The notes: generated by a model from the letters alone, not told the origin. DNA of 15,362 nucleotides from Nitrospirota bacterium (GCA_040754455.1 JBFMCP010000053.1:1-15362); one strand, 5' to 3'; counted from the first letter of the stretch, positions 204 to 14,924 are shown. Numbers and translations: made by a program.

Positions 204-1589
204 CTAACGAAAATCTGTTTCCAACTTCTTCCTCAATGTATTTCTCGATATGCCTAAGAGTTTCGCGGCTTGGACCTGATTGCCCTTTGTGAGTTCCAAC
301 GCCCTGCAGACCATATTTTTCTCGATTGCCGCAATAATGTCCTGGAATCTTTCCTGACATCCCTCCCTGAATGCGGAATCAATAAGATGAGCGATTGCAT
401 CTTTAAGGGTGGCACAGCTCATCTTTGCGAGTTTCAGGGAATCACAGCATGCAAGGGAGAGATAATTGTCATTGCAGAAGACCATCGCTTTCTGGATCGT
501 GTTCTCGAGTTCCCTGACATTGCCGGGCCATGCGCATCCCCTGAAGTGGTCTAACACCTCCGAGGTGACACCCTTGATTTCCTTCCCGAGCTTCCTGTTG
601 AATTTCCCGATGAAATACTGCACAAGATCGTCGATGTCCTCTCTCCTTTCCCGCAAGGGCGGCAGGGCTATCGTTACCACATTGATACGATAGAAGAGAT
701 CTTCCCTGAATGTTCCTTTCTCCACCATACTTTCAATATCTTTGTTCGTTGCGGCGATAAGCCTCACATCAGTCTTTATCGTTTCGTTTCCGCCGACCCG
801 CTGGAACGTGCCGTCCTGGATAAAGCGCAGGACCTTCGCCTGAAGGGAGAGGGACATATCGCCGATCTCATCGAGAAAGAGCGTGCCGCTGTCGCACTGC
901 TCGCATTTCCCTATGCGTCTGAATTCAGCCCCGGTAAACGCTCCCCGCTCATGCCCGAAGAGTTCGCTCTCCAAAAGCTGCTCGGGAATGGCCGCGCAGT
1001 TGATGGCGAGAAAAGGCTTGTTCGCCCGTTTGCTGTAATGGTAGACGGCCCGCGCAACCAGTTCTTTGCCTGTGCCGCTTTCCCCCCTGATGAAAACAGT
1101 GGCATCCGTAGGAGCCACCCTCCCGATCTGCTTATAGATATCGAGCATCACGTGGCTTTTGCCTATGATCGTCTCCCCTTTTGTGTAATCCTCTGTTTGA
1201 TCAAAGGTGACCACTTCTTTCACAAGTTCTTTCGCCTTGATTGCGCCCTTGACCCGTACAAGCAGTTCGTCGTTGTCGAAGGGCTTAAGAAGATAATCAT
1301 AGGCGCCGAGCTTCATGGCCTGTATCGCCTTTTCGGTCGTGCTGAAGGCGGTCATCATGATCACCTGGACTTCGGGATGGGACTCCTTAATCCTGCCCAA
1401 GGCATCCAAGCCGTCAATCTCCGGCATTCTGACATCCATAAGAACGAGATCAGGAGCTGCTCCGGCGATAAGCGCCAGGGCTTTTTCTCCGTTCGTCTCG
1501 GTTACAACGTCATAGCCCTCAGCCTGAAGCAGCCGCTGAAGCGAATAGCAGACTGTCTTCTGGTCATCGACAACAAGTATGGTGTTCAT
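204..1589 (-). CDS. Sigma54-dependent response regulator (NtrC/AtoC family: receiver + AAA+ + Fis-type HTH)
   Basis: Receiver domain (ILVVDD, DLVLMDVRMP, KPFD), Walker A GESGTGKE, GAFTGA loop, Walker B LFLDEIGD, WPGNVRELEN and C-terminal GNQVQAAKLLGISRNTLRKKL. ATGA overlap with the kinase stop. Confidence 0.97.
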   Translation of the reverse strand: MNTILVVDDQKTVCYSLQRLLQAEGYDVVTETNGEKALALIAGAAPDLVLMDVRMPEIDGLDALGRIKESHPEVQVIMMTAFSTTEKAIQAMKLGAYDYLLKPFDNDELLVRVKGAIKAKELVKEVVTFDQTEDYTKGETIIGKSHVMLDIYKQIGRVAPTDATVFIRGESGTGKELVARAVYHYSKRANKPFLAINCAAIPEQLLESELFGHERGAFTGAEFRRIGKCEQCDSGTLFLDEIGDMSLSLQAKVLRFIQDGTFQRVGGNETIKTDVRLIAATNKDIESMVEKGTFREDLFYRINVVTIALPPLRERREDIDDLVQYFIGKFNRKLGKEIKGVTSEVLDHFRGCAWPGNVRELENTIQKAMVFCNDNYLSLACCDSLKLAKMSCATLKDAIAHLIDSAFREGCQERFQDIIAAIEKNMVCRALELTKGNQVQAAKLLGISRNTLRKKLETDFR

Positions 1590-2968
1590 GCATGCACAGG
1601 AATCTTCATGGTAAATATAGTTCCCCCTCCATTACTTTCAAAGCTGATGTCGCCGCTGTGGATATTTACGATATTGTATACAATCGAGAGACCAAGGCCA
1701 GTGCCATCGCCTTTTGTCGTGAAAAACGGGTCGAATATTTTTCCCCGTATCTCTTCAGGAATGCCCTGGCCTGTGTCAGCTACCGAAATGATGTAGTGAC
1801 CATCGGCGTTTCTACTTGATACCGTCAGGGTTCCGCCTTCAGGCATCGCCTCGATCGCATTCAGCACAAGGTTCATAATCGCCTGCTCTAAAAGGCCCCT
1901 GTCCGCCTTGACCGGAGGCAGTTTCGTAAGGTCCATTTCCACCGTGACGCGTTGATTCTTCGCCTGATGCTGGGTGAGATTCACGACCTCTTTTATCACA
2001 GGGTTGATGTATACCTCCGAGGGATTGAATTCATCGCCCCGTGCAAACCGGAGAAATCTCGAAAGGATCTCATCCATCTGCTCCGTCGCTGACAGCACTA
2101 CCTGCATGTCCTCCCTTGTCAAGGACGGGTTGTCCTTGAAGGCGTTGAAGAGCACCTTAATAGAGGTCAGGGGATTCCTGATCTCATGGGCGAGTCCTGC
2201 AGAAAGCCTCCCCAGTGCGGTCAGCTTCTCGGTCCTGAGCATCTGCCTGTAGGAGTATTCCATCTTCTTTCTGTAAGTTTCAAGTTCGAGGGAGAGATGG
2301 TTGAAGGTGCTTGAAAGCTCTCCAATTTCGTCTCTCGATTTCACGTCGAGGCTCTTGCCGAATTCTCCCTTCGAAAGAAGGTTGGCGAATCCGACAAGCG
2401 CATTGAGGGGCTTTGTAATAAACCTGCTGAATAAACAGGCGAATGCTGCGCCGGTGAGCGTCACACCTATCGTCAGGGTGATAACAATGTATCTGATCCG
2501 CGCGAGCGTCTGCATTATACGTTCCTCCCGCAGCCCCACATGGACTTCCGGGCTCATACCTGCGAATATCTTCACGCCGATGTCCCGAACGAAGCCCCGT
2601 TCGGTGTCGAGCAGTTGGACGGAAGTCGGTCTGTCATAAAGCGGGTTCCAGCGCAGGACTCCCGGAGGATGGCCGTTCTTGAAGGTGTGGGCAAAGAGTT
2701 CACCGTTGTCGTCAAGGATAAAGATATATTCCACATCCCGCTCTGTCCTGAGGAGATCATCAATAGCCTCCTGCGTCCTGTAGATGTCTTGCAAAAGCAC
2801 TGAGTCCGCGATCCTTTCGGAAAGGTTTCGGGCGATAGATTCGCCCTGCCTCGACAACTCCTGCCGCAAGGAGTCGATCACAACGCTCCGGACTGCAAGA
2901 CCGAGCAATACTCCAAGGCTCAGAACGAGAAGTACATTGAGCAGGACTATCTTCAGCCAGAGCTTCAT
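1586..2968 (-). CDS. Membrane sensor histidine kinase (2 TM, extracytoplasmic domain, HAMP, HisKA, HATPase)
   Basis: Two hydrophobic segments, HAMP (ITKPLNAL...DEIGELSSTFN), H-box LAHEIRNPL, N-box NLVLNAIEAM, G1 DTGQGIP, F-box FDPFFTTK and G2 GTGLGL. ATGA overlaps at both ends. Confidence 0.96.
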   Translation of the reverse strand: MKLWLKIVLLNVLLVLSLGVLLGLAVRSVVIDSLRQELSRQGESIARNLSERIADSVLLQDIYRTQEAIDDLLRTERDVEYIFILDDNGELFAHTFKNGHPPGVLRWNPLYDRPTSVQLLDTERGFVRDIGVKIFAGMSPEVHVGLREERIMQTLARIRYIVITLTIGVTLTGAAFACLFSRFITKPLNALVGFANLLSKGEFGKSLDVKSRDEIGELSSTFNHLSLELETYRKKMEYSYRQMLRTEKLTALGRLSAGLAHEIRNPLTSIKVLFNAFKDNPSLTREDMQVVLSATEQMDEILSRFLRFARGDEFNPSEVYINPVIKEVVNLTQHQAKNQRVTVEMDLTKLPPVKADRGLLEQAIMNLVLNAIEAMPEGGTLTVSSRNADGHYIISVADTGQGIPEEIRGKIFDPFFTTKGDGTGLGLSIVYNIVNIHSGDISFESNGGGTIFTMKIPVHA

Positions 2969-3879
2969 TTAATGAGACCGTATTTAGCGGCCAGAATTTC
3001 TATTTCTTTCAGATCAGCCTCGCGATATTCAGAAAAACCTTTCGGCATCTCTGTCTTGTCCCAATCCACGAGAATCCCTGAATGTTTCCCTTTGGGGTCA
3101 AAAGAAAGAAGCGCAGTCCTGACACTTGCTATGATGGGCAGGTGGACATCTTTATTAGCGCATATGAGGCTGCTCGGGTAGGGTTTCGATGTCGCAATGA
3201 CCTTGATCTTTCCTTCCGACACCAGTCTCTTCGCCATGTTGTCCTGCAGCGAACCGGCGTCATACTCGCCGTTCAGGACGGCCCGGGCAGTCAAGGCATG
3301 AGAGCCGGTAAAGGCATGGCCCTTAAGGTCTGTTATGAGAATCCCTGCGTCTTCCAGCATCTTGCGGGGGATCACATGTCCCTGTGTCGAATACTTGTCC
3401 CCGAATGCAAAGGTCTTGCCCTTTAAGTCCTTAAGCGTATTCACAGAACTGTCGCTCCTGGTAAAGATGACCGAGCGGTACTCAGGCCTGCCGTCCTCGT
3501 TCAGGCCCATCACAAGACAGCTTGAACCATACTGCCTCTTTGCCAAAACGCAGGTTACCGGCCCGAGAGCTGCAAAATGTGTAATCCCCTTGCCGAGATT
3601 TTCAACAGTGCTTTCATACTTTTCCGTGAACTTGATGGAGAATCTGTTTCCGGTGTTCTGCTCAAGATAGCGCAAGAATGGCAGATATATCTTCGTGTCT
3701 TCTTTTGGACTGAGCCTCAGGTCGAAACCGAATTTCAGGGAACGCGCCTCAGCCTGCCGTACGACAGTCTCCTCTTGCGGTGCCCTCTTGTCAAGGCTGA
3801 CTTTTTTGGATACCTCTCTGTCTCCGCAACCGGCAATGCATAGCGTAATTATAATAAGGCAAGCAACATACTTCGCCAT
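2965..3879 (-). CDS. PhnD/AioX-like (phosphate/phosphonate-binding fold) substrate-binding lipoprotein, probably a sensory partner of the kinase
   Basis: Lipobox-like IAGC (Cys18) and PhnD-family motifs (YRSVIF, DLKGKTFAFGD..STQGH..P, GSH...AVLNGEYDAG). It is translationally coupled to the kinase, with no ABC permease or ATPase next to it. Confidence 0.85.
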   Translation of the reverse strand: MAKYVACLIIITLCIAGCGDREVSKKVSLDKRAPQEETVVRQAEARSLKFGFDLRLSPKEDTKIYLPFLRYLEQNTGNRFSIKFTEKYESTVENLGKGITHFAALGPVTCVLAKRQYGSSCLVMGLNEDGRPEYRSVIFTRSDSSVNTLKDLKGKTFAFGDKYSTQGHVIPRKMLEDAGILITDLKGHAFTGSHALTARAVLNGEYDAGSLQDNMAKRLVSEGKIKVIATSKPYPSSLICANKDVHLPIIASVRTALLSFDPKGKHSGILVDWDKTEMPKGFSEYREADLKEIEILAAKYGLIK

Positions 3880-3951
3880 AGGTACTATAAATTTTACACT
3901 ATTCCTTGCCGAAGGGACAGACCGGATATCTGCAAGGCTTGTTTCTTATTA

Positions 3952-4626
3952 TCAAGGATGCTCCTCCACCCAGACCTCTCCGTCAGGCGTCGTTTCCTTT
4001 TTCCAGATAGGCGTGATCCGCTTGAGTTCATCGATGCAGAAACGGCAGGCGCGGAACGCTTCATCGCGATGTTCCGATGCGACAACGATCAGGACGATGT
4101 TTTCTCCGACTGGGATGGTCCCTACCCGGTGAATTATCGTCACATCGATTGCTCCGAATTCCCTGATCGCCCGGTCCCTGATTTCGGAAAGCTTCTTTTC
4201 GGCCATGCCGGGATAGTGCTCGAAATCGAGCTTCGCTATCTGCTTATCCTGCGAGACATCCCTCGTGGTCCCGAGGAAAGTTACTATCCCACCGATGGAG
4301 GACGATGATTGTTTTAGCCTCTCCACCTCCTTGTCAAGGGCGAACGGTTCCTCTTGAATCCGGACGATGCCGAAGAGGCCGGATCCGCCCGAAAACGGCG
4401 GCATGAGTGCGACCTCGTCGCCGTCCCTGACCAGAGCGTCTTTCCTGACGAACTCCTCATTTACTGCGATCATCAGCCGTTCCGGGGAAAGCAGAGGAGA
4501 CAGCGACGGACATTTCTGCATCACCTGCTCAAGAAGGGCTGCCACAGTGCCCTCCCGCATATCAAGTGATAATTCAGAGACTCCGGCACGGTATTTCAAA
4601 ATAGCGAAGAGTTTGACGGTTACCAT
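3952..4626 (-). CDS. moaDE: Fused molybdopterin synthase MoaD-MoaE (MoaX-like)
   Basis: N-terminal ubiquitin-like MoaD (VKLFA...IAVNEEF...DGDEVALMPPFSGG, Gly80-Gly81) continues in frame into MoaE (GGIVTFLGTTR, EHYPGMA, HRVG, HRDEAF, IDELK..TPIWKKE). Confidence 0.93.
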   Translation of the reverse strand: MVTVKLFAILKYRAGVSELSLDMREGTVAALLEQVMQKCPSLSPLLSPERLMIAVNEEFVRKDALVRDGDEVALMPPFSGGSGLFGIVRIQEEPFALDKEVERLKQSSSSIGGIVTFLGTTRDVSQDKQIAKLDFEHYPGMAEKKLSEIRDRAIREFGAIDVTIIHRVGTIPVGENIVLIVVASEHRDEAFRACRFCIDELKRITPIWKKETTPDGEVWVEEHP

Positions 4627-4637: not shown

Positions 4638-5648
4638 CTATCCCCCGATCTGCGACATAGGAGACAACGAGGGCCCGAATAAAGCGGGTTCCTGGAGTGC
4701 ATGCCGGGCGGGTTTGGACAGTACGGCGTGTCGATAAAGAGCTTCAAGTTCTTCATCGGCCGCGCCGTTCCTGAGAGGCGTTTTGATGTCCACTGTCATT
4801 TCCGAAAAAAGGCAGGGTCTTAACTTGCCGACAGCCGTGAGGCGCAGCCTGTTGCAGGAACCGCAAAAGCAGTCGCTTATTGCGCTGATGAAGCCGATCA
4901 TGCCCGGCGCTCCCTCTATCCGATAATTTCGTGAAGGACCGCCGCCTTTGAATGCAAGCAGGACCAGCTTTCCCGTGGATGCCACACGGGCCATGATCTC
5001 GTCCTTGCTCAGATACGCATCGGGCTTCCACGTTTCACGGTTTCCAATAGGCATGAATTCGATAAATCGCACGTGAATATCCTTGAACATCGTTAGGGAC
5101 GCAAACCGGGATACTTCATCGTCATTGATCCCGCGCACAGGCACCATATTGATTTTAACCGGCCATAGTCCAGCCCGTTCGGACTCCCGCATTCCTTCCC
5201 ATACGCGGTCGATCTCGCCGCCTCTGGTGATCTTCCGGTACCGGTCGGCGATCAGCGTATCAAGGCTGATATTCACCCTGTCGAGACCGGCCCTTTTTAG
5301 CTGCTGCGCCATTTCAGCTAACCGCTGGCCGTTCGTAGTGATACTCAGGTCCCTGATCCCCATGCTCTTGATCCCCGAAATGAGCGGAATGATATCTTTC
5401 CGCAGCAGTGGTTCGCCACCGGTCAATCGGACTTTTTTTACGCCGTTTTTGGCCGCAATGCACACGATCCTGATGATCTCATCGGTGGTCAGGATATCTG
5501 ATTGATCGAACCGCTTCAAGCCCTTTTCAGGCATGCAATAGATGCACTTCAGATTGCATGAGTCCGTGATGGATATACGGAGATAGTCGATCTGCCGGTT
5601 GAAGGAGTCCTTTAGCGTTTCCGTGCTGCCGTTCGATACCATGTTCAT
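4638..5648 (-). CDS. moaA: GTP 3',8-cyclase MoaA (radical SAM)
   Basis: YLRISITDSCNLKCIYCMP (CxxxCxxC), RLTGGEPL, FCGSCNRLRLT...PCL and C-terminal MSQIGG. The start could alternatively be the ATG at 5642. Confidence 0.97.
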   Translation of the reverse strand: MNMVSNGSTETLKDSFNRQIDYLRISITDSCNLKCIYCMPEKGLKRFDQSDILTTDEIIRIVCIAAKNGVKKVRLTGGEPLLRKDIIPLISGIKSMGIRDLSITTNGQRLAEMAQQLKRAGLDRVNISLDTLIADRYRKITRGGEIDRVWEGMRESERAGLWPVKINMVPVRGINDDEVSRFASLTMFKDIHVRFIEFMPIGNRETWKPDAYLSKDEIMARVASTGKLVLLAFKGGGPSRNYRIEGAPGMIGFISAISDCFCGSCNRLRLTAVGKLRPCLFSEMTVDIKTPLRNGAADEELEALYRHAVLSKPARHALQEPALFGPSLSPMSQIGG

Positions 5649-5666: not shown

Positions 5667-6737
5667 TTATCCAAGTTTCCCGAACGGACAGACCGGATAA
5701 TTGCAGGTCTCGCATTTCATGCAAAGTCCTCCGTGACCGAGTTCTGATAACTCCCTTCTCCCTATCTTCTCTCCTGCAAGAACCCTCGGAAGGATCAAGT
5801 CAAAAATAGTGGTTTTTGCATACATGCCGCAGGCCGGAATACCGAGAATGGGGATATCCCCGAGATAGGCAACAAGAAACATCGCACCGGGCAGAACTGC
5901 CGAGCCGTAGGTAAGGTCCTGGGCTCCAAGTTTCCTGATCGCAAACCTCGTCACATCATCAGGGTCAACAGACATGCCGCCAGTGGTGATCAGCAGGTCA
6001 GCCCCAGCGTTTATCAATTCCCTCAGCCTTGCCTCGATGAATGTTTCATCATCCGGGGCATAATATGCGCCCACGATTTCGCCTCCCATGGCCTCTATCT
6101 TGGCCTTGATAATAGACGCGAAGGCGTCCTTTATTCTGCCGTAGTAGACTTCATTGCCGGTGATGACCACGCCTGCCTTCGGCTTCCTGATCTCTCTGAC
6201 CTGAATGATCTTTCCAGCCTGCTCGCCGATCTTCACCGCTGCCTGCACTACATCCTTCTTCACTATCAAGGGAATTGCCCTCGTTGCGGCAACCGTCTGA
6301 CCTTGTTTCACAACCGTGTTGCTGTGGAGCGTTGCACACATAATATCACCCAGCATATTGAATTCAAGAAGGGCGTCTTTGGTTATCTTCAGCAAACCGT
6401 CTCTCTCTGCAATGATATTTATCTTTCCCTCTTTGGGTTCACCCTTTATCTTCACTCCCTCTCCCATAAGGGCGTTTGAAAGGATATAGGCAGCATCGTC
6501 TTCGTGCATCTCATTATCAGCGATATTAAGAACAAAGAGATGTTCCTTACCAAGCCTCTGGAGATGACAGACATCTTCCTGTCTGATGACATGTCCTTTC
6601 TTGAAGACTCGCCCCTTGAACTCTCCAGGCCTTATTTCGGTTATGTCATGGGCAAGTACAGTGCCTATAGCTTCTTTTGCCGAAATTGTCTTTACGCCTA
6701 TCCTATCTTTTGTATCAGGCCTTTGAATATCGCACAT
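5667..6737 (-). CDS. MoeA-like molybdopterin-binding protein (MoCF biosynthesis domain) with a C-terminal Cys cluster
   Basis: AIGTVLAHDITEI N-terminus, VVITGNEV..GRIKD, TTGGMSVDPDDVT, PGAMFL, GIPACGMY and C-terminal CMKCETCNYPVCPFG. AGGAGG RBS. Confidence 0.85.
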   Translation of the reverse strand: MCDIQRPDTKDRIGVKTISAKEAIGTVLAHDITEIRPGEFKGRVFKKGHVIRQEDVCHLQRLGKEHLFVLNIADNEMHEDDAAYILSNALMGEGVKIKGEPKEGKINIIAERDGLLKITKDALLEFNMLGDIMCATLHSNTVVKQGQTVAATRAIPLIVKKDVVQAAVKIGEQAGKIIQVREIRKPKAGVVITGNEVYYGRIKDAFASIIKAKIEAMGGEIVGAYYAPDDETFIEARLRELINAGADLLITTGGMSVDPDDVTRFAIRKLGAQDLTYGSAVLPGAMFLVAYLGDIPILGIPACGMYAKTTIFDLILPRVLAGEKIGRRELSELGHGGLCMKCETCNYPVCPFGKLG

Positions 6738-8248: not shown

Positions 8249-8827
8249 TTAATATCCGGCATCAGCACAAGGCCGGCAGAGGACCTTTCCCTTTATCTCG
8301 ACCTTCCGCATGTCTTGCACATATTCACCGCAGGCCTCGCATTTCACCCTCCGCAAGGGTCTTCCAGGCATGTCTTCCGGATTTATCTTCACTTTCACGT
8401 TCATGACGTCGAAGAGTTCTTCATCAGGCATGATCTTGTATGCCTCAAGCTGGGCCTCATACTTGTTTTCGATCTCAGCAAAAAGCTCTTTTGCCTTCTG
8501 TCGTGAGTCCTCCCTTGCAATGACGCGCACGGCCTTGCCCGTTTTGAGGTTGACGAATGTCGCGGCCATTTTCCCGTAATCCATGAACTTCATGGTCCTG
8601 TGGCCGAGGCTGCATCCGGTGACCGACTGAACGGCATCGGTTGCGCATCTGTCAATCTCAACAAAGACGATGATGCTCTTTCTGTCTTTGCCTTTGGGAT
8701 CTGTAATAGCGATCTCCCTTAGCCCAAGCATGGACATCTTCACCCCGAGCACTTGGCCGGGACAGAGATGGCCGTGAATCCGTGAGGACTCATTGAGGAG
8801 TTGCTCAAAGTCAAACAGATTCGTCAT
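8249..8827 (-). CDS. FmdE/FwdE-family protein with a C-terminal zinc finger
   Basis: HGHLCPGQVLG, EIDRCATDAVQSVTGCSLG, DYGKMAATF and C-terminal CEACGE...LCRPC. AGGAG RBS. Confidence 0.9.
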   Translation of the reverse strand: MTNLFDFEQLLNESSRIHGHLCPGQVLGVKMSMLGLREIAITDPKGKDRKSIIVFVEIDRCATDAVQSVTGCSLGHRTMKFMDYGKMAATFVNLKTGKAVRVIAREDSRQKAKELFAEIENKYEAQLEAYKIMPDEELFDVMNVKVKINPEDMPGRPLRRVKCEACGEYVQDMRKVEIKGKVLCRPCADAGY

Positions 8828-8834: not shown

Positions 8835-9440
8835 TTAGATACAACCTTTCAATATGTATGAAGCGCCTTTGTAAAAATCATCCCCAGACGCCCCTATGAC
8901 TTTTTCGACAAAAAAGGGAACCCATAAGGCCATATGTCCCCTTATAAAATCTCCCCTGATCTCGAAAAGCCTGGACGCCTCTTCGCGCTCTCCCTTTTCG
9001 AACAGCTTTATCATCCTGCCGGTGAGGTCGTAGATGAATTCCAGCTCTATCCCAATATGATCGTCGGGAATACTGTACAATTCCTTTACCGCCATGCCTG
9101 CATCGAGGTATTTTTTTCTTACATCTATGGTTTCATCCGTCATGAGCGAATGGGATTCGGAAAGATAAAACGATGCGTAGGGCACTGCTGGGGGATTTTT
9201 CGGACCTACGAAAAGACGTGCATATTCAACGGCAAGCTCTTCCGTCCATTCATTCAATCTATGGCTGTTTCTGCGGACCGACTCGATCATCAGTTTCAGG
9301 CCGTAGGATATCTCGTCATCGGCCTCCGAAGGCAACTCGGCTTTTGACATGCCCTCGATAAGCTCCCTCATCGGTTCCTTTAAAAATACCTGCCTCAGAA
9401 GATTAAACAAAGAAAGTTCTTCCCTGAGTTCGTCTATCAT
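8835..9440 (-). CDS. TorD/DmsD-family molybdoenzyme maturation chaperone
   Basis: EYARLFVGP...VPYASFYL, PDDHIGIELEF and HMALWVPFF; lies directly downstream of the catalytic subunit. Confidence 0.92.
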   Translation of the reverse strand: MIDELREELSLFNLLRQVFLKEPMRELIEGMSKAELPSEADDEISYGLKLMIESVRRNSHRLNEWTEELAVEYARLFVGPKNPPAVPYASFYLSESHSLMTDETIDVRKKYLDAGMAVKELYSIPDDHIGIELEFIYDLTGRMIKLFEKGEREEASRLFEIRGDFIRGHMALWVPFFVEKVIGASGDDFYKGASYILKGCI

Positions 9441-9462
9441 AAACGCTTCTCCATTAGAAAGA

Positions 9463-9488
9463 GGGACAGGGCCTGTTTGCCCTGTCCC
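9463..9488 (-). terminator. GC-rich stem-loop between the catalytic subunit and chaperone genes (partial terminator or mRNA-stability element)
   Basis: Perfect 10-bp stem GGGACAGGGC (9463-9472) / GCCCTGTCCC (9479-9488) with a 6-nt loop, followed on the minus strand by TCTTTCT. Confidence 0.6.
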
Positions 9489-9515
9489 CTCTCCTCATTT
9501 CAGCAAACATTGGGA

Positions 9516-12362
9516 TTATGCCTTCTTGACCCTTACGATCATGTCAGCATATCCCGGAAAGCCCATGATCGGGCTAAGCACATCGGGATCGACGAGATCG
9601 TTGTGGCTCGGGGTGTATTGCCTGCTCTTATATGCCGGACCGAGCCCCTCGCTAAATCTGCCGCCCGTGGCAAAGCCGATCTTGATGACCCCCGGTCTCA
9701 TACCGCCCGAGGCAAAGATCTTCCCCTTTGTCGACTTGCCAAGCGGGTTTTCCACGACAACGAGGTCTCCGTTCTTGAGCCTCATTTTTTTGGCGTCATC
9801 GATGTTCATCCAGATCGTACCGACCGAATAGGAGTTCGGCTTGAATTTCATCTTCACGGATTTCATGGGATCATCACCCAGAGGCATCGCCTCCGGAACA
9901 TCCGCCTCGAACTCCTTGTTCATCGGCTGCCATGTGCCTTCTGCCTTGATCTCTCCAAGCCAGGGGACCATCTGCGTGCCGCTCATTGCATGATGCACCC
10001 TCCCGGTAATGAGCTGGAAAGGGTAATCCTTTGCGTACTTTTTGTATGCCGTGTTCGTGTAAGGGTTCCATTTGGTCTCGAACCAGTAGAAAGTGGAGGG
10101 GAATCTGTCAAAGCCGATCTCCTTCAGCCCCTTCGGTACTTCTCCGCCCGCCTTCTCGATCTTCTCGTTATGCGATTTGTACTGACCGAATCTCTTGTCT
10201 CCTTCTTTCCAGTCCCATTTGAATTCGATCAATTTCGTCGAAGTATAAGGCCATGCCTTGTTCGGCTCCTCAGCGTTGACCTTCTTGTACCTGCGCCAGC
10301 TCATGGGCCAGATGGCAACGCCGTTGTTGCTCCTGAGCCATTCTACCGTAACCGGCTTGCCCTTGATCACCTTCTTTTCGTGATCGATGGTCACTTCACC
10401 CTTTTCGAGCGATTCCGGAGTGCCTATTATCTGGTAGCCCTCGGGATACTGGGGATAGGGAAGCGGGGTCCCTACATTGTGGCGTCCGGGCGAGACCGAA
10501 AGCATCTCGTTTACGAAGTCCTCTTCGGTCTTGTACTTCTCCCAGAAGTCCGAGCCCTTGATGTCGGCGTCGCCAAGCTCACTAAGCTTCTTGGCGAGCA
10601 TGTTCATGATCTCAGTGGGCTTTTTGCACTCATGGAGAGGTTTGATCACCGCGTCCCTGTTGTAGATCACCGCATGAGACGGATATATGTCGCTCAGGCT
10701 CTGGCGTTCGGCATAGCTTGCCTCGGGAAGGATCACATCCGCATAAAGGGCGCTTTCCAAATTCAGGCTGTCTATGAAGACAAAGAGCTCGAGTTTGTAG
10801 TTGCCCGACTTGTCCTTTGCAGTGATTGCCGCTTTCCATTTCCAGGGAGCAGAGCCCGTGACCACAGAGTTCCCGGTCCTCAGGACGTATGCCTTGATCG
10901 GATAGTGATGGCCCCTGAAGGCGCCGTATCGGATATCAACGCCCTCCATAAAGGCATTGGGATAGTCGGCGACCGAGTCGTCCCAGGCGGCCGGGAACTT
11001 GCTGCCGAAGAGGTCCATATGGAGATCTCCGACCTTGCCTTCCACCTCCTTGCCGCCGATGATTCTCTTGACCTTTCTGTCCTTGAAGAAGCCGCCGGTT
11101 GCGCTGCCTCCCTTTGAGGCTTTCGTTATCTCAGTGTCGATGACTCCGCCCGGAACATCGAAGTTCCCCGTTACCACATTCAGGGCCACACCGAGGATCG
11201 ATGCGCAGTAGCCGTTATAATGGTGCCCTGGAGACTGCATGCCCCAGACGAGGGCCGCGGGCTTCGTGCTCCCGAAAAGATGGGAAAGCTCCTCTATCTG
11301 ACCTCTTGAAAGGCCTGTCCTGTCCGCCGCCCAGTCGAGGCTGAAATAGCTAAGGCCGTTTATTGGGTCCTTCTTCGCCCACCATGACTTGAAGGCCGCT
11401 TCGAACTCGTCCCAGCCGACCGAATATTTCTTGAAGCTCCAGTCGATGTACTTCTTGTTCGGGTCGTTCTGGTTGTCGTTTTCGAGGATATATCTGAGCA
11501 TGGCGCCGAAGAGATCGCCGTCAGTGCCGGCCCTCGGGGAAAGCCACATGTCGGCACGTGCGGCGGTGTTGCTCAGGGACGGGTCTATGACCACAACCTT
11601 GCAGCCGTTTTCGACCTGAGCGCCGACAGTACCTCTCTGCTCATAATAAATCCTGGTGGCTACAAAGGGGTTCCAGCCGTTATAGACAATGAGCTTCGTC
11701 CTGTAGGTGTAGTCCTTTTTCAACGAACCGTCAGGCTGTCTCACGAGCTGGGGCCTCATGATATCAGGCTCCCACCTCTTGCCGCCGACCATGAGCTTGG
11801 GGCCGTGCCGCCTCGGCGTATCGCATATCGCGCCGTGTTCCGTGCAGTTGGGTGTACCGAACGCGAAGAAAAGGCGGTAGTACTGGTCCCTGTCCGTAAC
11901 GTCGCCGCAATCCATTATCACCGACTCGGCGCCGTATTTCTTCTTGATGTCAGATAGCTTCCGGCCTATGTGGTCTATCGCCTCATCCCATGTGACACGT
12001 TTGAATTTTCCCTCGCCCCTCTTGCCGACCCGTATCATCGGGTACTTCAGCCTGTAGGGGGAATAGACAAGCTGCTGACCTGAAGCGCCCTTTGCGCATG
12101 CGGTACCCGCATTCATCGGCACCGCCTTGTTGCCGTAAATCTTCGCTATCTTTCCGTCCTTGACCCACATCTCAAGGCCGCATTCGGCAGGGCACATGGC
12201 GTCTGCGGTGTATTTCACTTCATATTTGCCCATCGCGGTCTGCATCGCCTCGGCCTCGGACGGGGAAAGGTGTTTCAAGGACAGCAGGCCTGTCTTGTTC
12301 AGCGCTGCGATACCTGCTAATGCCCCGCTATATTTTAAGAAGACTCTTCTTGATATCTGCAT
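9516..12362 (-). CDS. Tat-exported Mo/W-bisPGD oxidoreductase catalytic subunit (DMSO reductase family, Psr/Phs/Arr/Anr-like branch); substrate unassigned
   Basis: Tat motif SRRVFLK with an AEA cleavage-like site. N-terminal Fe-S motif D54-x2-C57-x3-C61-x27-C89, RLKYPMIR...TWDEA, GTPN..HGAIC180D putative Mo-ligand segment, VVIDP..S.TA..AD.WL..R.GTD, ADVILP..SY.ER and the C-terminal molydop-binding domain (YPFQLITGR..H). AGGAGG RBS. Confidence 0.93.
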   Translation of the reverse strand: MQISRRVFLKYSGALAGIAALNKTGLLSLKHLSPSEAEAMQTAMGKYEVKYTADAMCPAECGLEMWVKDGKIAKIYGNKAVPMNAGTACAKGASGQQLVYSPYRLKYPMIRVGKRGEGKFKRVTWDEAIDHIGRKLSDIKKKYGAESVIMDCGDVTDRDQYYRLFFAFGTPNCTEHGAICDTPRRHGPKLMVGGKRWEPDIMRPQLVRQPDGSLKKDYTYRTKLIVYNGWNPFVATRIYYEQRGTVGAQVENGCKVVVIDPSLSNTAARADMWLSPRAGTDGDLFGAMLRYILENDNQNDPNKKYIDWSFKKYSVGWDEFEAAFKSWWAKKDPINGLSYFSLDWAADRTGLSRGQIEELSHLFGSTKPAALVWGMQSPGHHYNGYCASILGVALNVVTGNFDVPGGVIDTEITKASKGGSATGGFFKDRKVKRIIGGKEVEGKVGDLHMDLFGSKFPAAWDDSVADYPNAFMEGVDIRYGAFRGHHYPIKAYVLRTGNSVVTGSAPWKWKAAITAKDKSGNYKLELFVFIDSLNLESALYADVILPEASYAERQSLSDIYPSHAVIYNRDAVIKPLHECKKPTEIMNMLAKKLSELGDADIKGSDFWEKYKTEEDFVNEMLSVSPGRHNVGTPLPYPQYPEGYQIIGTPESLEKGEVTIDHEKKVIKGKPVTVEWLRSNNGVAIWPMSWRRYKKVNAEEPNKAWPYTSTKLIEFKWDWKEGDKRFGQYKSHNEKIEKAGGEVPKGLKEIGFDRFPSTFYWFETKWNPYTNTAYKKYAKDYPFQLITGRVHHAMSGTQMVPWLGEIKAEGTWQPMNKEFEADVPEAMPLGDDPMKSVKMKFKPNSYSVGTIWMNIDDAKKMRLKNGDLVVVENPLGKSTKGKIFASGGMRPGVIKIGFATGGRFSEGLGPAYKSRQYTPSHNDLVDPDVLSPIMGFPGYADMIVRVKKA

Positions 12363-12373
12363 TGTTACACCTC

Positions 12374-13039
12374 CTATCCGTTAAGCTTGCCGTCGGCCGC
12401 ATCAAGCGCCTCTTTATCCGGCGCGATGTAAGGGGTTTTCGGTTTGGTTCCGTATTCAGGATGCCAGTCCAGTGTTTTCACCGAAGCCTTGAGCTTCGAA
12501 ACCTCGCTGTTGGGGTCGTTCAGATCGCCGAAGATCCTCGCGATGCCGACGCAGTTCCTCACGCACGCCGGCTCCTCGATCCCCTGTGCGAGCCTGTGGC
12601 TGCAGTAGTCGCACTTATCAACCACTCTTAAATCCTTTGCCTTCTTTCCCTTAACCTCAGGGACGTCTTTGGCGAACTTTGCCGGATCATTCTTGACAGG
12701 GATATGCGGATGCATAAACCGTGCGCCGTACGGACATGCACCAACGCACCTGCCGCAACCGATGCAGAGTTCCCTGTTTACCATCACCACACCATCCTCC
12801 CCCTTGTACGTGGCGCCAGGTACAGGGCAGGGAAGGACACAGGGAGGCTCCTCGCAGTTATTGCAGAGCTTCGGGAAAAAGTGGCGCTTCGCCTTCGGGT
12901 AATCTCCTGTATCGGCAAAGTCCACCCTTGCCCTGAAGTGGCCTATCGGCACAGAGTTTTCCATCTTGCAGCTCACCTGGCAGGATGTACAGCCGATGCA
13001 CTTCCTCAGATCCACGAGCAACGCATACTTCTTTGACAT
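12374..13039 (-). CDS. Four-cluster [4Fe-4S] electron-transfer subunit (DmsB/PsrB/ArrB-like)
   Basis: CIGCTSCQVSC, CNNCEEPPCVLPCP, CIGCGRCVGACPYGAR and KCDYC...PACVRNC..AR.FGDLNDPNSEVS. No signal peptide. AGGAGG RBS. Confidence 0.95.
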   Translation of the reverse strand: MSKKYALLVDLRKCIGCTSCQVSCKMENSVPIGHFRARVDFADTGDYPKAKRHFFPKLCNNCEEPPCVLPCPVPGATYKGEDGVVMVNRELCIGCGRCVGACPYGARFMHPHIPVKNDPAKFAKDVPEVKGKKAKDLRVVDKCDYCSHRLAQGIEEPACVRNCVGIARIFGDLNDPNSEVSKLKASVKTLDWHPEYGTKPKTPYIAPDKEALDAADGKLNG

Positions 13040-13087
13040 AATATATCTCCTCCTTTCAAATTAAATCTTTGTTAACAGGAAAATTAA

Positions 13088-13104
13088 AGCAACTGTTATG
13101 CCGG
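13088..13104 (-). promoter_or_regulatory. Sigma54 (-24/-12) promoter for the B-A-D operon
   Basis: Minus strand CCGGCATAACAGTTGCT = GG-N10-GC with TTGC, close to the TGGCAC-N5-TTGCW consensus, about 50 bp upstream of the B-subunit ATG. Confidence 0.85.
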
Positions 13105-13108
13105 TCGG

Positions 13109-13121
13109 AAACCACTTGAAA
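13109..13121 (-). promoter_or_regulatory. Possible IHF site between enhancer and sigma54 promoter
   Basis: Minus strand TTTCAAGTGGTTT vs WATCAA-N4-TTR (2 mismatches), with an adjacent A/T tract, in the expected position. Confidence 0.4.
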
Positions 13122-13146
13122 AATAAAGGAACAAGTCTAACTAAGT

Positions 13147-13182
13147 TGTGCAGGTCTTGAGCAGGTGTGCAGAAAGTGAACA
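13147..13182. promoter_or_regulatory. Tandem palindromic upstream activator sites (TGTGCA-N5-TGARCA x2)
   Basis: 13147-13163 TGTGCA-GGTCT-TGAGCA and 13166-13182 TGTGCA-GAAAG-TGAACA, 19-bp period, about 70-105 bp upstream of the predicted sigma54 start. Confidence 0.65.
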
Positions 13183-13282
13183 GTACTCATTTGCTTTCTA
13201 AGGTCTTTCATTGATCAATCAGGTTGATCCGGAAAAAAAAAGCTGCAAAAGAGGAAAGATTGGCCGAATAAAGAGATGTGAA

Positions 13283-14218
13283 CTATTTCAATATCCCTTT
13301 CACAATCACATCCACCGCCTCTTCAGGCGTCAGCCCGTGCGCCATCAGTGTCTCCATCTGGCGTTTGTCCACGCTGCCGATCGCTGCCTCATGGGTCACC
13401 TTTGCAAACTGATTTGTGACATTGACGATTGGGATGGCCTTTGCCAAGGCCTTGTCCTTCACAATCTCCATGCAATCTACATGCCCGCGTGAGCCTTCCG
13501 CATTTCCCTCCGTGATGCCGGTAACTTCTGCTGTAGCCTCATCCTCAATAGCAACTCTGGTCTTTATAATACTTCGCGAGTTTTTACCCTCCAGCGCAAC
13601 TTTTTCTTTTATTTTTATATCGTCATTCGCATGGCCGAAGACCCTTGCTGTCAGTTCAGTCACGGCATTTTCTCCTGCCTCGACCTTATAGTCCATATCG
13701 AGTTTCCCGACCCTTCCAGTGGTCAGCGTAAAATCCGCAAAGTACCTGCCGTCCTTCCCGATCTTTACAACCGCTTTCGGGACGACCTCAATGCCGCCGT
13801 AGAGCCCATGATAGTGGGTCTCCGAATATCTCATCTCTGCGCCTTCTCCGATCTCAACTACTGCGTCCATGATATGCCGCACCTTTTCAGCCTTCGGGAA
13901 TATGCAGTGGGCAATGAAATGCGCAGATGAATTCTTTTCGAGGGTAACATCCATCTTGATTTTTTGGGTCCCCTTGGCGTGCAGAACGCCGAAGCAGAGA
14001 TGAACCGGATTCTTTATCTTTATGCCTTCTTTCACCGTAACCCTGGCGCTGACCCCGGTCAGGGTCTCTCTCGCATCGACCTCAAGCCCTTCCACGCTTT
14101 TCATGCTGAGGAGTTTATGCCCGCTTGCAACAAGATGCGCTATCTCATTATTTTCAAGGATGGCCTTGTCGCCACCGGCGTCACCAAAGGCCTTCATAAG
14201 ATCATAAAGTTCACTCAT
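13283..14218 (-). CDS. sufB: SufB/SufD-family Fe-S scaffold, short form (SmsB-like)
   Basis: PVHLCFG, AHCIFP, RGHVDCMEIV and AKVTHEAAIGSVD..QMETLMAHGL..EEAVDVIVKG. Start moved from 14299 to the ATG at 14218 (GGAGG RBS, overlapping the sufC stop), giving 311 aa. Confidence 0.88.
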   Translation of the reverse strand: MSELYDLMKAFGDAGGDKAILENNEIAHLVASGHKLLSMKSVEGLEVDARETLTGVSARVTVKEGIKIKNPVHLCFGVLHAKGTQKIKMDVTLEKNSSAHFIAHCIFPKAEKVRHIMDAVVEIGEGAEMRYSETHYHGLYGGIEVVPKAVVKIGKDGRYFADFTLTTGRVGKLDMDYKVEAGENAVTELTARVFGHANDDIKIKEKVALEGKNSRSIIKTRVAIEDEATAEVTGITEGNAEGSRGHVDCMEIVKDKALAKAIPIVNVTNQFAKVTHEAAIGSVDKRQMETLMAHGLTPEEAVDVIVKGILK

Positions 14219-14924
14219 TGCACACCTCCCCGTCACAGACAACGCATTTTCTTGCTTTATAGTACTCCGCCACTTTGTGCGGCCTTCCTGAGCAGACAAT
14301 GTTCCCCCTGCATATCTGGGATGCCTTGTCCGCGATCATAGCTATCTCTTCCCTGTGGGTTATCAGCAGCACCGCTGATCCGTTTTGCTTAAACAGATTA
14401 ATGACATTTATGATATCCTGCGTCGAAAGCATATCTATGCCCGAGTCAGGCTCATCGAGGATGGCAAGCTTCGGTCGAAGCGCCAGGATCGATGCAAGCT
14501 CTATCCGCTTCCGCTCTCCTCCGCTCAGACATTTGTCGGCCATTCTTCCAAGATACAGCGCCGGGGAGAGGCCGACCATTTCGAGATAATGAGACGGATC
14601 TGCACCCTTATGTTTCAGCGTGAGATAGTCCCTGACGGAAATTCCCTCAAACCTCACCGGCTCCTGCCAGGCCATGGTGATACCTAACTGCGCCCGCTCG
14701 TGGATTTTGAGGTCGTTGATAACCTTTCCTTCAAAGGCTATTTCACCGGCTGTCGGCCTGTATCCCTCGCAACCCATAATGAGATAAGCAAGGGTGCTTT
14801 TGCCCGTGCCGTTCGTGCCGAGAAGTGCATGGACCTCCGATTGCTCAATCGTCATGTAAAGACCGTCGAGAACTCTTTTCGCGCTCGCATCGTAGGTGAG
14901 TCCTCTTATATCGAGCAACGGCAT
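14211..14924 (-). CDS. sufC: SufC-like ABC ATPase with a Cys-rich C-terminus (SmsC-like)
   Basis: Walker A GTNGTGKST, ERAQLGITMAWQEP, LSGGERKRIE, Walker B ILDEPDSGID, ITH and C-terminal CVVCDGEVC. Coupled to the SufB-like gene. Confidence 0.88.
   Translation of the reverse strand: MPLLDIRGLTYDASAKRVLDGLYMTIEQSEVHALLGTNGTGKSTLAYLIMGCEGYRPTAGEIAFEGKVINDLKIHERAQLGITMAWQEPVRFEGISVRDYLTLKHKGADPSHYLEMVGLSPALYLGRMADKCLSGGERKRIELASILALRPKLAILDEPDSGIDMLSTQDIINVINLFKQNGSAVLLITHREEIAMIADKASQICRGNIVCSGRPHKVAEYYKARKCVVCDGEVCNE

What the first reader, a model, noticed from the sequence alone, without database searches (positions are those of the whole stretch)
204..14924. Near self-contained respiratory molybdoenzyme kit: enzyme, chaperone, Fe-S assembly, Mo uptake, Moco synthesis and a three-component sensor
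Seen: 14 co-oriented, tightly packed genes supply a Tat-exported Mo-bisPGD enzyme (B, A), its chaperone (D), a minimal Fe-S assembly pair, a molybdate transporter, Moco enzymes and an X-S-R sensor. Established: binding protein + kinase + regulator trios accompany metalloid oxyanion enzymes (aioXSR, arxXSR, arrTSR). From memory, the B-before-A order with D and no anchor matches the anrXSRBAD antimonate reductase cluster. Inference: this is an oxyanion-respiration module (Sb(V), As(V), Se or S oxyanion) rearranged as BAD-[cofactor genes]-XSR that carries much of its own cofactor supply.
Basis: partly seen in the sequence, partly recalled or inferred. Interest (0 to 1): 0.85.

Follow-up and report, generated by a model that had tools for sequence, protein, structure and literature searches.

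The report
Anr-like metalloid reductase operon beside cofactor genes
This is a sensor-controlled operon for an exported molybdenum enzyme that most likely respires antimonate or a related metalloid oxyanion, and the cofactor genes packed around it look like the cell's general housekeeping genes, not a private supply.

Summary
Fourteen minus-strand genes (204-14924) encode SufC/SufBD-like proteins, a Fe-S subunit B, a 948-aa Tat-signal Mo-bisPGD subunit A, a TorD-like chaperone D, FmdE, a ModE N-domain, a MOT1 molybdate transporter, a MoeA-like protein, MoaA, a MoaD-MoaE fusion, and a PhnD-like binding protein X, a kinase S and a sigma-54 regulator R.

A belongs to a sharply isolated clade, 55-91% identical across bacteria and archaea and at most 45% to anything else. 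It fails every curated NCBIfam equivalog, including ArrA, PhsA, TtrA and DmsA.

In 72 related loci, B-A-D recurs in 61-66 and X in 42, mostly as X-S-R-B-A-D. ACR3 arsenite/antimonite pumps lie in 11. A Desulfuribacillus stibiiarsenatis protein is a clade member, 63% identical.

This fits the published Anr antimonate reductase. I could not read those papers, so the equation rests on recall.

The "kit" reading is weak. Only 1 of 72 loci shares the cofactor insertion. SufBD, MoaDE and MOT1 are single-copy in the genome, and MoaC and true MoeA lie elsewhere.

The scan had already found a look-alike cluster in another genome (e1-1405561).

Verdict: a new member of a known kind, of modest interest.

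The parts
14211..14924 (-). SufC-like ABC ATPase. A neighbour, probably not part of the reductase system.
   Evidence: ABC_tran. TIGR01978 sufC 161.7 bits, below the 212.8 cut-off; no close paralog in the genome.
13283..14299 (-). SufB/SufD-like scaffold, the only SUFBD_core gene in the genome. A neighbour.
   Evidence: PF01458, 72.9 bits; the single PF01458 match in G000; a SufBD homolog lies near A in 1 of 72 loci.
13147..13182 (-). Conserved upstream block (TGTTCA..TCTGCACA..CTG ... TG.ACA). Candidate binding site for the sigma-54 activator R.
   Evidence: columns invariant across 6 related loci, about 45-95 bases upstream of the -24/-12 element. The binding role is inferred.
13088..13103 (-). 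Sigma-54 type -24/-12 promoter, cGGCATaacagTTGCt, 48 bases upstream of the B start codon.
   Evidence: 1 mismatch to TGGCAY-N5-TTGCW. The count in the whole window is not above chance; the same element sits upstream of B in 17 of 26 cases with a sigma-54 R, 0 of 10 with a LuxR-type R, and 2 of 19 with no R seen. GG and TTGCT are invariant in 6 loci.
12374..13039 (-). B: four-cluster Fe-S electron-transfer subunit with no signal peptide. Presumed to be exported bound to A.
   Evidence: Best NCBIfam matches are TtrB 178 bits, DsrO 161 and ArrB 155, all below their cut-offs.
9516..12362 (-). A: 948-aa Tat-signal Mo-bisPGD catalytic subunit. Presumed Mo ligand Cys180; FS0 motif D54-x2-C57-x3-C61-x27-C89.
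9462..9489 (-). Strong stem-loop between A and D. Candidate attenuator or mRNA-stabilising hairpin.
   Evidence: -31 kcal/mol, z -3.55, matched by 0 of 200 shuffles; a hairpin of -20 kcal/mol or stronger in 36 of 58 A-D spacers of related loci.
8835..9440 (-). D: TorD/DmsD-family Tat proofreading and cofactor-insertion chaperone.
   Evidence: PF02613, 93.5 bits; present in 62 of 72 loci.
8249..8827 (-). FmdE-like protein with a C-terminal zinc ribbon.
   Evidence: a second copy, 73% identical, on contig C24.
7851..8180 (-). ModE N-terminal HTH domain protein with no Mop/TOBE molybdate-binding domains.
   Evidence: TIGR00637, 94.3 bits, cut-off 98.5; a second copy, 79% identical, on C24.
6746..7906 (-). 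MOT1-family MFS molybdate transporter, single copy in the genome. The called TTG start overlaps ModE-N, so the true start is probably further downstream.
   Evidence: PF16983, 147 bits..
5667..6737 (-). MoeA-like protein with only the MoCF_biosynth domain. Not a full MoeA.
   Evidence: NF007960 MoeA 30 bits, cut-off 440; a second copy, 69% identical, on C24.
4638..5648 (-). MoaA, GTP 3',8-cyclase.
   Evidence: TIGR02666, 361.8 bits, cut-off 284; a second copy, 54% identical, on C20.
3952..4626 (-). MoaD-MoaE fusion (molybdopterin synthase), the only copy in the genome.
2965..3879 (-). X: PhnD/PtxB/ArrX-type periplasmic oxyanion-binding protein.
   Evidence: PF12974, 191 bits. solved relatives: PtxB 84 bits, ArrX 56, AioX 26; present in 42 of 72 loci.
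1586..2968 (-). S: membrane sensor histidine kinase (HAMP, HisKA, HATPase_c).
204..1589 (-). R: NtrC-type sigma-54-dependent response regulator.
   Evidence: Sigma54_activat 243.6 bits; TIGR01818 508.8 bits, below its 558.6 cut-off.

Best explanation
The core of the finding is an Anr-type respiratory metalloid-oxyanion reductase operon. The most likely substrate is antimonate, Sb(V).

Shown:
- Genes B, A and D encode a Fe-S subunit, a Tat-signal Mo-bisPGD catalytic subunit and a TorD-like chaperone.
- X, S and R encode a periplasmic binding protein, a histidine kinase and a sigma-54 activator.
- A sigma-54 promoter and an upstream block are conserved in front of B.

Inferred mechanism:
- X binds the metalloid oxyanion in the periplasm and signals through S to R.
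- R~P binds the conserved upstream block and opens the sigma-54 promoter.
- A receives Mo-bisPGD and its FS0 cluster in the cytoplasm with the help of D.
- A is then exported by Tat together with the signal-less B.
- In the periplasm, A reduces the oxyanion at a Cys180-ligated Mo centre. Electrons arrive through the four clusters of B from an unlinked quinol dehydrogenase, since no anchor is encoded here.

The flanking and intervening genes are the organism's general Fe-S and molybdenum-cofactor genes that happen to sit here in this lineage. These are sufCB, fmdE, modE-N, mot1, the moeA-like gene, moaA and moaDE. They are not a dedicated supply.
For: Gene identities.

Clade identity of A:
- At 50% clustering of 1.84 billion proteins, only one full-length representative is close (P0032, 80%). 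The next is 45% (P0146) and the rest are 36% or less.
- In a quick ML tree of 42 rows, the 24 family rows are monophyletic (SH-aLRT 100). They sit apart from the genome's own ArrA-like and PhsA-like paralogs.
- No NCBIfam equivalog cut-off is reached: PhsA 223.6/694, ArrA 110.8/1600, TtrA 77/1750, DmsA 145.9/1600.
- Cys180 aligns with the Mo-ligand Cys of PsrA and ArrA. It sits in an invariant HG(A/S)ICD(T/V)PRRHGP(K/R) motif, with Thr182 and Lys189 in 13 of 14 rows.

Synteny in 72 species-level loci:
- A in 66, D in 62, B in 61, X in 42, sigma-54 R in 31, S in 28.
- The commonest order is X-S-R-B-A-D.

Metalloid link:
- ACR3 lies in 11 of 72 loci. In L010, L046 and L063 it lies between R and B.
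- ArsR lies in 5 loci, and ArsA sits next to the Desulfosporosinus metallidurans locus.
- The same genome carries a separate ArrA-like enzyme (NF041714, 1152.8 bits) with its own X-S-R, so this enzyme is not the arsenate enzyme.
- A Desulfuribacillus stibiiarsenatis protein (WP_069702695.1) is a clade member, 63% identical.

Regulation.

Housekeeping reading of the cofactor genes.

Literature seen here (passages only):
- AnrA is cited as the Sb(V) respiratory reductase of D. stibiiarsenatis.
- One search lists AnrA among the respiratory Sb(V) reductases and gives the title of the Kambara 2024 reference, which names AnrA of Geobacter sp. SVR.

Recalled, not seen: the operon name anrXSRBAD and its induction by Sb(III).
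Against: - I could not show that the D. stibiiarsenatis clade member is the protein published as AnrA.
- No protein named for Geobacter sp. SVR appeared among roughly 145 clusters listed by three searches, nor in 10 clusters opened member by member.
- Neither primary paper is held. No held paper contains 'anrXSRBAD' or the accessions I tried.
- ACR3 and Ars neighbours do not separate Sb from As.
- The direction of catalysis (reduction or oxidation) cannot be read from sequence.
- The nearest curated HMMs are sulfur enzymes (PhsA for A, TtrB for B). Many hosts are sulfur-cycling lineages: Desulfocapsa, Desulfurivibrio, Caldimicrobium, Dissulfurispiraceae.
- Against the housekeeping reading: gaps from D through MoaDE are only 7-68 bases, the terminator-like site after FmdE is not better than shuffles, and no internal promoter is established. 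Co-transcription from the sigma-54 promoter is therefore not excluded.
Confidence: 0.6

Rival explanations
1. Same clade and same machinery, but the physiological reaction in this organism is not Sb(V) reduction. It could be reduction of another group-15/16 oxyanion (arsenate, selenate/selenite, tellurate). Or the enzyme could run in reverse as an anaerobic Sb(III)/As(III) oxidase, as Arx does relative to Arr.
For: - ACR3, ArsR and ArsA neighbours fit As as well as Sb.
- X is related to the arsenate binder ArrX (56 bits) and to the phosphite binder PtxB (84 bits).
- The clade also occurs in Rhodoferax, Rubrivivax, Burkholderiaceae and Opitutaceae MAGs, which are not classic metalloid respirers.
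- Function in the clade is known at most for two organisms. The evidence there is transcript and proteomic evidence, from recall.
Against: - The genome already has an ArrA-like enzyme with its own sensor trio.
- High conservation (55-91%) across phyla argues for one conserved substrate.
- The one characterised link I could see is to an antimonate respirer.
Confidence: 0.2
2. A polysulfide/thiosulfate/tetrathionate-type sulfur reductase of a divergent Psr/Phs/Ttr lineage.
For: - Best curated matches: PhsA for A (223.6 bits) and TtrB for B (178 bits).
- Best solved relative: Thermus PsrA.
- The B-before-A order, with an NrfD anchor in monoderm and archaeal loci, recalls ttrBCA.
- Many hosts are sulfur-compound metabolisers.
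Against: - Scores are far below the cut-offs (PhsA 694; TtrA 77 against 1750).
- The clade is separated from the PhsA-like sequences in the tree.
- The genome has its own PhsA-like enzyme at 538.9 bits.
- A PhnD-type oxyanion sensor and ACR3/Ars neighbours are not expected for sulfur reductases.
Confidence: 0.07
3. One reading: the whole B-to-R stretch is one sigma-54-driven transcript, so the enzyme brings molybdate uptake and Moco synthesis under the same metalloid signal as a self-provisioning island.
For: - All genes are co-oriented, with 7-72-base gaps from D to X.
- The same arrangement is kept in one related MAG, L057.
- FmdE-ModE-N-MoeA-like lies next to X-S-R-B-A-D in L017, L046 and L056, and follows B-A-D in L018.
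- MoaA follows D in L037, L042 and L068.
- No convincing terminator lies inside the stretch.
Against: - 1 of 72 loci has the full insertion. The nearest relative, L009, has none.
- MoaDE and MOT1 are the sole copies, in a genome whose six other Mo/W-bisPGD-type enzymes include two formate dehydrogenases. Metalloid-only expression would starve these.
- MoaC and true MoeA are elsewhere, and no MobA was seen in the window.
- A strong hairpin follows A.
- A sigma-70-like site precedes X at 3912-3884, a consensus match only.
- SufCB lies upstream of the promoter and is not conserved with the module.
Confidence: 0.13

Closest known systems
Anr antimonate respiratory reductase. AnrA of Desulfuribacillus stibiiarsenatis (Abin & Hollibaugh 2019) and anrXSRBAD of Geobacter sp. 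SVR (Kambara et al. 2024). Neither paper was seen; only their citations appeared. The operon name is recalled.
   Same: - The same six gene types: X, S, R, B, A, D.
- B precedes A and D follows.
- A carries a Tat signal.
- No membrane anchor in the diderm form.
- A D. stibiiarsenatis protein is in the same tight clade, 63% identical.
   Different: - The order here is B-A-D ... X-S-R, with six cofactor and transport genes inserted between D and X.
- Identity with the published AnrA proteins was not verified.
Arr respiratory arsenate reductase with the ArrXSR sensor (ArrA structure 6cz7; ArrX structure 6x6b).
   Same: - A periplasmic Mo-bisPGD enzyme with a Cys Mo ligand, plus a Fe-S subunit and a TorD-like chaperone.
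- A PhnD-type binding protein with a kinase and a regulator.
- ACR3/Ars neighbours in some loci.
   Different: - ArrA HMM score is 110.8 bits against a 1600 cut-off.
- The order is A-B-D in Arr and B-A-D here.
- A is about 100-130 residues longer. Residues of roughly 600-848 have no detectable counterpart in ArrA or PsrA.
- The genome has a separate ArrA-like gene.
Psr/Phs polysulfide and thiosulfate reductases (PsrABC, structure 2vpw).
   Same: - The best solved relative (131 bits) and the best curated HMM.
- The same Cys-ligated Mo site and Fe-S partner.
- An NrfD anchor is present in the monoderm and archaeal versions of this clade.
   Different: - At most about 36% identity.
- Fails the PhsA cut-off (223.6/694).
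- No anchor in this window.
- An oxyanion sensor trio and metalloid efflux neighbours.
ttrBCA tetrathionate reductase and srdBCA selenate reductase (gene orders recalled).
   Same: - B-first gene order.
- B's best NCBIfam match is TtrB.
- The monoderm loci here read B-C(NrfD)-A-D.
   Different: - TtrA HMM score is 77 bits against a 1750 cut-off.

Membership tests
Anr (antimonate respiratory reductase) | The catalytic subunit falls in the clade of the published AnrA proteins (D. stibiiarsenatis, Geobacter sp. SVR). | tested here: inconclusive
   A is 63% identical to D. stibiiarsenatis WP_069702695.1 and shares a monophyletic clade with it. I could not confirm that this is the published AnrA. 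No Geobacter sp. SVR protein was seen, and the papers are not held.
Anr (antimonate respiratory reductase) | Gene set X, S, R, B, A, D with B before A and D after (operon name recalled). | tested here: met
   All six are present. The order here is B-A-D...X-S-R. X-S-R-B-A-D is the commonest order among the 72 related loci.
Anr (antimonate respiratory reductase) | Periplasmic location: a Tat signal on A and a signal-less B. | tested here: met
   SRRVFLK at residues 4-10 of A. B starts MSKKYALLVDLRKCIGC, with no signal. Read from the sequence; no predictor was run.
Anr (antimonate respiratory reductase) | Sb(V) reductase activity and induction by antimony. | not testable with these tools
   Needs an enzyme assay and expression data.
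ArrA respiratory arsenate reductase (NF041714) | Score at or above the curated equivalog cut-off. | tested here: not met
   110.8 bits against 1600. A paralog on contig C4 scores 1152.8.
PhsA thiosulfate reductase (NF012032) | Score at or above the curated cut-off. | tested here: not met
   223.6 bits against 694.
TtrA tetrathionate reductase (NF011567) | Score at or above the curated cut-off. | tested here: not met
   77 bits against 1750.
DmsA / YnfE / YnfF (TIGR02166, NF011566, NF041884/5) | Score at or above the curated cut-offs. | tested here: not met
   204.5/777.7, 145.9/1600, 131.5/1650 and 126.9/1675.
SrdA / SrrA selenium oxyanion reductases | Clade membership of the catalytic subunit. 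| not tested
Mo-bisPGD (DMSO reductase) superfamily | Fe4S4, molybdopterin and dinucleotide-binding domains, plus a Mo-ligand residue. | tested here: met
   PF04879, PF00384 and PF01568 all exceed their cut-offs. Cys180 aligns with the ligand Cys of PsrA and ArrA.
SUF / SMS Fe-S assembly (SufB TIGR01980, SmsB NF052511, SufC TIGR01978) | Score at or above the curated cut-offs. | tested here: not met
   SufB 70.8/346.4, SmsB 88.8/650, SufC 161.7/212.8. Only Pfam SUFBD_core and ABC_tran pass. It is a divergent SufBC-like pair.
MoeA molybdopterin molybdotransferase | MoeA_N and MoeA_C domains around the MoCF domain. | tested here: not met
   Only PF00994 was found. NF007960 scores 30 bits against 440. 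True MoeA_N genes lie on C6 and C30.
Self-contained Moco pathway | MoaA, MoaC, MoaD, MoaE, MoeB, MogA/MoaB, MoeA and MobA all present in the cluster (pathway list from established knowledge). | tested here: not met
   The window holds MoaA and MoaD-MoaE only. MoaC is on C3 and MoeA on C6/C30. MobA and MoeB were not searched for elsewhere.

The most novel reading that the evidence does not exclude
In this lineage the cell's only molybdopterin synthase (MoaD-MoaE) and its only MOT1 molybdate transporter have been captured inside a metalloid-sensing sigma-54 operon. If so, antimony or arsenic availability would gate cofactor supply for all of the organism's Mo/W enzymes.

In addition, the enzyme clade may be an ancient group-15 oxyanion reductase shared by bacteria and archaea, with an Asp-ligated FS0 cluster, whose real substrate range is wider than antimonate.
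Probability: 0.12. Interest if true: 0.6.

Novelty: new member of a known kind. Interest (0 to 1): 0.32.

Why it matters
If the assignment holds, it places Anr-type antimonate respiration in Thermodesulfovibrionales-like Nitrospirota. It also shows the clade to be widespread in subsurface, groundwater and hot-spring MAGs of many bacterial phyla and several archaeal lineages. That is useful for reading antimony cycling from metagenomes.

The survey gives practical markers for the family:
- B-A-D with a PhnD-type X.
- A sigma-54 or a LuxR-type regulator, depending on lineage.
- An NrfD anchor only in the Bacillota (11) and archaeal (4) loci.
- Frequent ACR3.
- The invariant HG(A/S)ICD(T/V)PRRHGP(K/R) motif.

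It also cautions against reading co-oriented cofactor genes as a dedicated kit.

Tried and rejected
Papers:
- Reading the two primary Anr papers failed. Kambara 2024 is not held by PMC id or by DOI.
- Abin & Hollibaugh 2019 appears only as a citation.
- Full-text searches for anrXSRBAD, anrXSR, WP_173201954 (a recalled accession), OEH84960, WP_069702695, BHU72_07145 (a recalled locus tag) and A0A1E5L498 found nothing relevant.
- Supplements of two papers that use anrA gave no reference accession.

Geobacter sp. SVR homolog:
- Three protein searches found no protein named for the strain.
- Opening ten clusters member by member found none either. This leaves its clade membership open.
- The genome-contig scan kept only 80 of 150 relatives. 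It omitted even named members such as D. hafniense, so absence from that list means nothing.

Other checks that led nowhere:
- A Moco riboswitch or any other Rfam family: none.
- The sigma-54 motif as a statistical signal in the window alone: 15 matches against 13.7 expected. Support comes only from its position and its conservation.
- The terminator-like site after FmdE: not better than shuffles (z -0.47).
- Inverted repeats in the B upstream region: none at seed 6.
- The careful ML tree search did not finish. The quick tree was used.
- The translation was in the wrong frame and was corrected.

Rejected: SufCB as a dedicated Fe-S supply. It lies upstream of the promoter, is single-copy, and is not syntenic in relatives.

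Full report
**What is there.**
The window is an entire 15,362-base contig (C53) of a 3.27-Mb, 92-contig genome. Fourteen ORFs between 204 and 14924 all lie on the minus strand. Pfam and NCBIfam identify them in transcription order:
- a SufC-like ABC ATPase;
- a SufB/D-core protein;
- a four-cluster Fe-S protein, B;
- a 948-aa Mo-bisPGD subunit, A;
- a TorD/NarJ-family chaperone, D;
- an FmdE protein with a zinc ribbon;
- a ModE N-terminal HTH protein;
- a MOT1-family MFS molybdate transporter;
- a protein with only the MoCF_biosynth domain (MoeA-like);
- MoaA;
- a MoaD-MoaE fusion;
- a PhnD-type periplasmic binding protein, X;
- a HAMP/HisKA kinase, S;
- an NtrC-type sigma-54 activator, R.

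A begins MQISRRVFLK, a twin-arginine motif. B has no signal. No NrfD-type or cytochrome anchor is present. Plus-strand ORFs have no family hits, and Rfam finds nothing.

**The catalytic subunit belongs to a discrete clade.**
- No NCBIfam equivalog cut-off is reached: PhsA 223.6/694, ArrA 110.8/1600, TtrA 77/1750, DmsA 145.9/1600.
- The best solved relative is Thermus PsrA at 131 bits, and ArrA scores 86 bits.
- Against 1.84 billion 50%-identity representatives, only one full-length protein is close (P0032, 80%). The next is a 1096-aa protein at 45% (P0146), and everything else is 36% or less.
- Members at 55-91% identity occur in Nitrospirota/Thermodesulfovibrionales, Desulfobulbales-type lineages, Burkholderiales, Opitutaceae, Bacillota (Desulfosporosinus, Desulfitobacterium hafniense, Moorella humiferrea), Actinomycetota, Deferribacteres and several archaeal MAGs.
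- I built a quick ML tree of 42 rows that I chose: 24 family rows, 14 of the next-best representatives and 4 paralogs from the same genome. The family is monophyletic (SH-aLRT 100). P0146 is its sister, followed by an uncharacterised group of roughly 740-810-aa proteins. The genome's own ArrA-like and PhsA-like enzymes lie elsewhere. The careful tree search did not finish.
- Cys180 aligns with the Mo-ligand Cys of PsrA and ArrA. It sits in a motif HG(A/S)ICD(T/V)PRRHGP(K/R) that is invariant in 14 diverse members apart from the variable positions shown.

**What travels with it.**
I called ORFs in 72 species-level loci fetched around homologs and clustered them. Many of these loci are cut by contig ends, so the counts below are lower bounds.

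| Gene family | Loci of 72 |
|---|---|
| A | 66 |
| D | 62 |
| B | 61 |
| X | 42 |
| sigma-54 R | 31 |
| S | 28 |
| ACR3 | 11 |
| NrfD anchor between B and A, Bacillota | 11 |
| NrfD anchor between B and A, archaea | 4 |
| LuxR-type R | 11 |
| HisKA_3 kinase | 8 |
| FmdE | 7 |
| MoeA-like | 6 |
| ArsR | 5 |
| ModE-N | 5 |
| NapC/NirT multihaem cytochrome | 4 |
| MoaA | 4 |

- The commonest order is X-S-R-B-A-D. B-A-D-X-S-R also occurs.
- ACR3 was checked with TIGR00832. It was the best hit for all 5 proteins scanned, and 2 of the 5 exceed the cut-off.
- In L010, L046 and L063, ACR3 lies between R and B.
- The Desulfosporosinus metallidurans locus reads X-S-R(LuxR)-B-C(NrfD)-A-D, followed by ArsA, ACR3 and ArsR.
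- In the window's own genome ACR3 gives 4 matches in 3.27 Mb. Eleven of 72 windows of about 20 kb is therefore a clear enrichment. This is my rough estimate; no formal test was run.

**Regulation.**
- A -24/-12 element, cGGCATaacagTTGCt, lies at 13103-13088, 48 bases upstream of the B start codon.
- In the window alone such matches are no more frequent than chance: 15 observed against 13.7 expected.
- An element matching at least 10 of 11 positions lies within 300 bases upstream of B in 17 of 26 cases where the locus has a sigma-54 R. It does so in 0 of 10 cases with a LuxR-type R and in 2 of 19 with no R seen. Those two are the window's nearest relatives, L009 and L057.
- An alignment of six related upstream regions shows invariant GG and TTGCT, an invariant block TGTTCA..TCTGCACA..CTG 60-95 bases further upstream (window 13182-13147), and a conserved AAAGGAGG ribosome-binding site.
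- That R binds this block is inferred.

**Link to the known system.**
- A protein of Desulfuribacillus stibiiarsenatis (OEH84960.1 / WP_069702695.1, 942 aa) belongs to the clade and is 63% identical to A.
- Passages in held papers say that D. stibiiarsenatis uses AnrA for Sb(V) reduction.
- One search lists AnrA among the respiratory Sb(V) reductases. Its reference list carries the title of the Kambara 2024 paper, which names AnrA of Geobacter sp. SVR.
- From memory, not from any call, the Geobacter genes are described as anrXSRBAD and are induced by Sb(III). This matches the conserved arrangement found here.
- I could not verify that the clade member is the published AnrA, and I saw no Geobacter-named protein. 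The primary papers are not held.
- An earlier AI note of this scan reached the same reading for a look-alike cluster in another genome (e1-1405561). That is a lead, not independent evidence.
- The same genome also holds a separate ArrA-like enzyme (847 aa, NF041714 1152.8 bits) with its own tandem-PhnD protein, kinase, regulator, B and D. It also holds a PhsA-like enzyme preceded by another X..S-R set. The window's enzyme is therefore a third, distinct sensor-coupled oxidoreductase.

**The "kit".**
The cofactor genes are not a conserved part of the module.
- Only L057 shares the window's B-A-D-FmdE-MOT1-MoeA-like-MoaA-MoaDE-X-S-R order.
- The nearest relative, L009 (A 91%), has B-A-D-X-S directly adjacent.
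- FmdE-ModE-N-MoeA-like precedes X-S-R-B-A-D in three Nitrospirota loci (L017, L046, L056) and follows B-A-D in a fourth (L018). The cassette is duplicated in this genome next to carB and tatC.
- SufBD, MoaDE and MOT1 are the genome's only copies. The genome also encodes six other Mo/W-bisPGD-type enzymes, two of them formate dehydrogenases, plus a NuoG homolog.
- Two NifU-type scaffolds, MoaC and two full-length MoeA genes lie on other contigs.
- SufCB lies upstream of the sigma-54 promoter.
- A strong hairpin (-31 kcal/mol, z -3.55) follows A. Comparable hairpins occur in 36 of 58 A-D spacers of relatives.

These facts favour housekeeping genes that have come to lie inside the operon in one sublineage. 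Co-transcription is still not excluded, because the gaps are short and no internal terminator is convincing.

**Verdict.**
The core is most likely an Anr-type periplasmic metalloid-oxyanion reductase operon under X-S-R/sigma-54 control (confidence 0.6). Other substrates or reverse operation are the main rival. It is a new member of a recently described kind, with a lineage-specific insertion of general cofactor genes. Interest is modest.

Noticed in passing
window 9462-9489 (-), and the A-D spacers of L009-L080: A 16-pair stem-loop sits between A and D (-31 kcal/mol, z -3.55). Hairpins of -20 kcal/mol or stronger, with unrelated sequences, occur in 36 of 58 A-D spacers of related loci, and some are followed by U-runs. 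This may set the BA:D expression ratio. No shuffle control was run for the survey.
   Followed up: partly
window 12201-12203 (codon of Asp54 of A): The first ligand position of the N-terminal Fe-S (FS0) motif is Asp in 12 of 14 diverse family members and Cys in 2 (D/C-x2-C-x3-C-x27-C). This suggests an Asp-ligated or three-Cys cluster as a family trait.
   Followed up: partly
G000 contig C4 about 104900-115200 (L082) and contig C2 about 152400-161800 (L081): The same genome has two further sensor-coupled Mo enzymes. One is an ArrA-like A-B-D set behind a tandem-PhnD protein, a kinase and a sigma-54 regulator, with a rhodanese and an ACR3 nearby. The other is a PhsA-like enzyme behind another X..S-R set and TauE-type exporter genes.
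   Followed up: partly
G000 contig C24 12807-14900 (L088): A second FmdE / ModE-N / MoeA-like cassette, 73, 79 and 69% identical to the window's copy. It lies between carB and an unknown 278-aa gene followed by tatC. The function of this recurring trio is unknown.
   Followed up: partly
L016, L039, L041, L042, directly upstream of B: A 460-490-aa NapC/NirT plus multihaem c-type cytochrome gene sits directly upstream of B in four anchor-less loci. It is a candidate quinol dehydrogenase feeding the B-A complex.
   Followed up: no
L045-L055, L062, L074-L080: Bacillota and archaeal versions insert an NrfD-type membrane subunit between B and A. They replace the sigma-54 regulator by LuxR-type or ArsR-HTH response regulators.
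   Followed up: partly
protein P0146: The only sister representative is 45% identical and 1096 aa long. It has an extra ~225 residues at its N-terminus, possibly a fused partner domain. NCBIfam gave no hit at E 1e-80.
   Followed up: no
window 15209-15362 (+): A divergent plus-strand ORF runs off the contig end. It has a weak HTH_23 match (15.7 bits, below cut-off), as seen in some transposase N-termini, and may explain the assembly break.
   Followed up: partly
window 14931-15179 (-): An 82-aa ORF directly upstream of the SufC-like gene has no Pfam or NCBIfam match.
   Followed up: no
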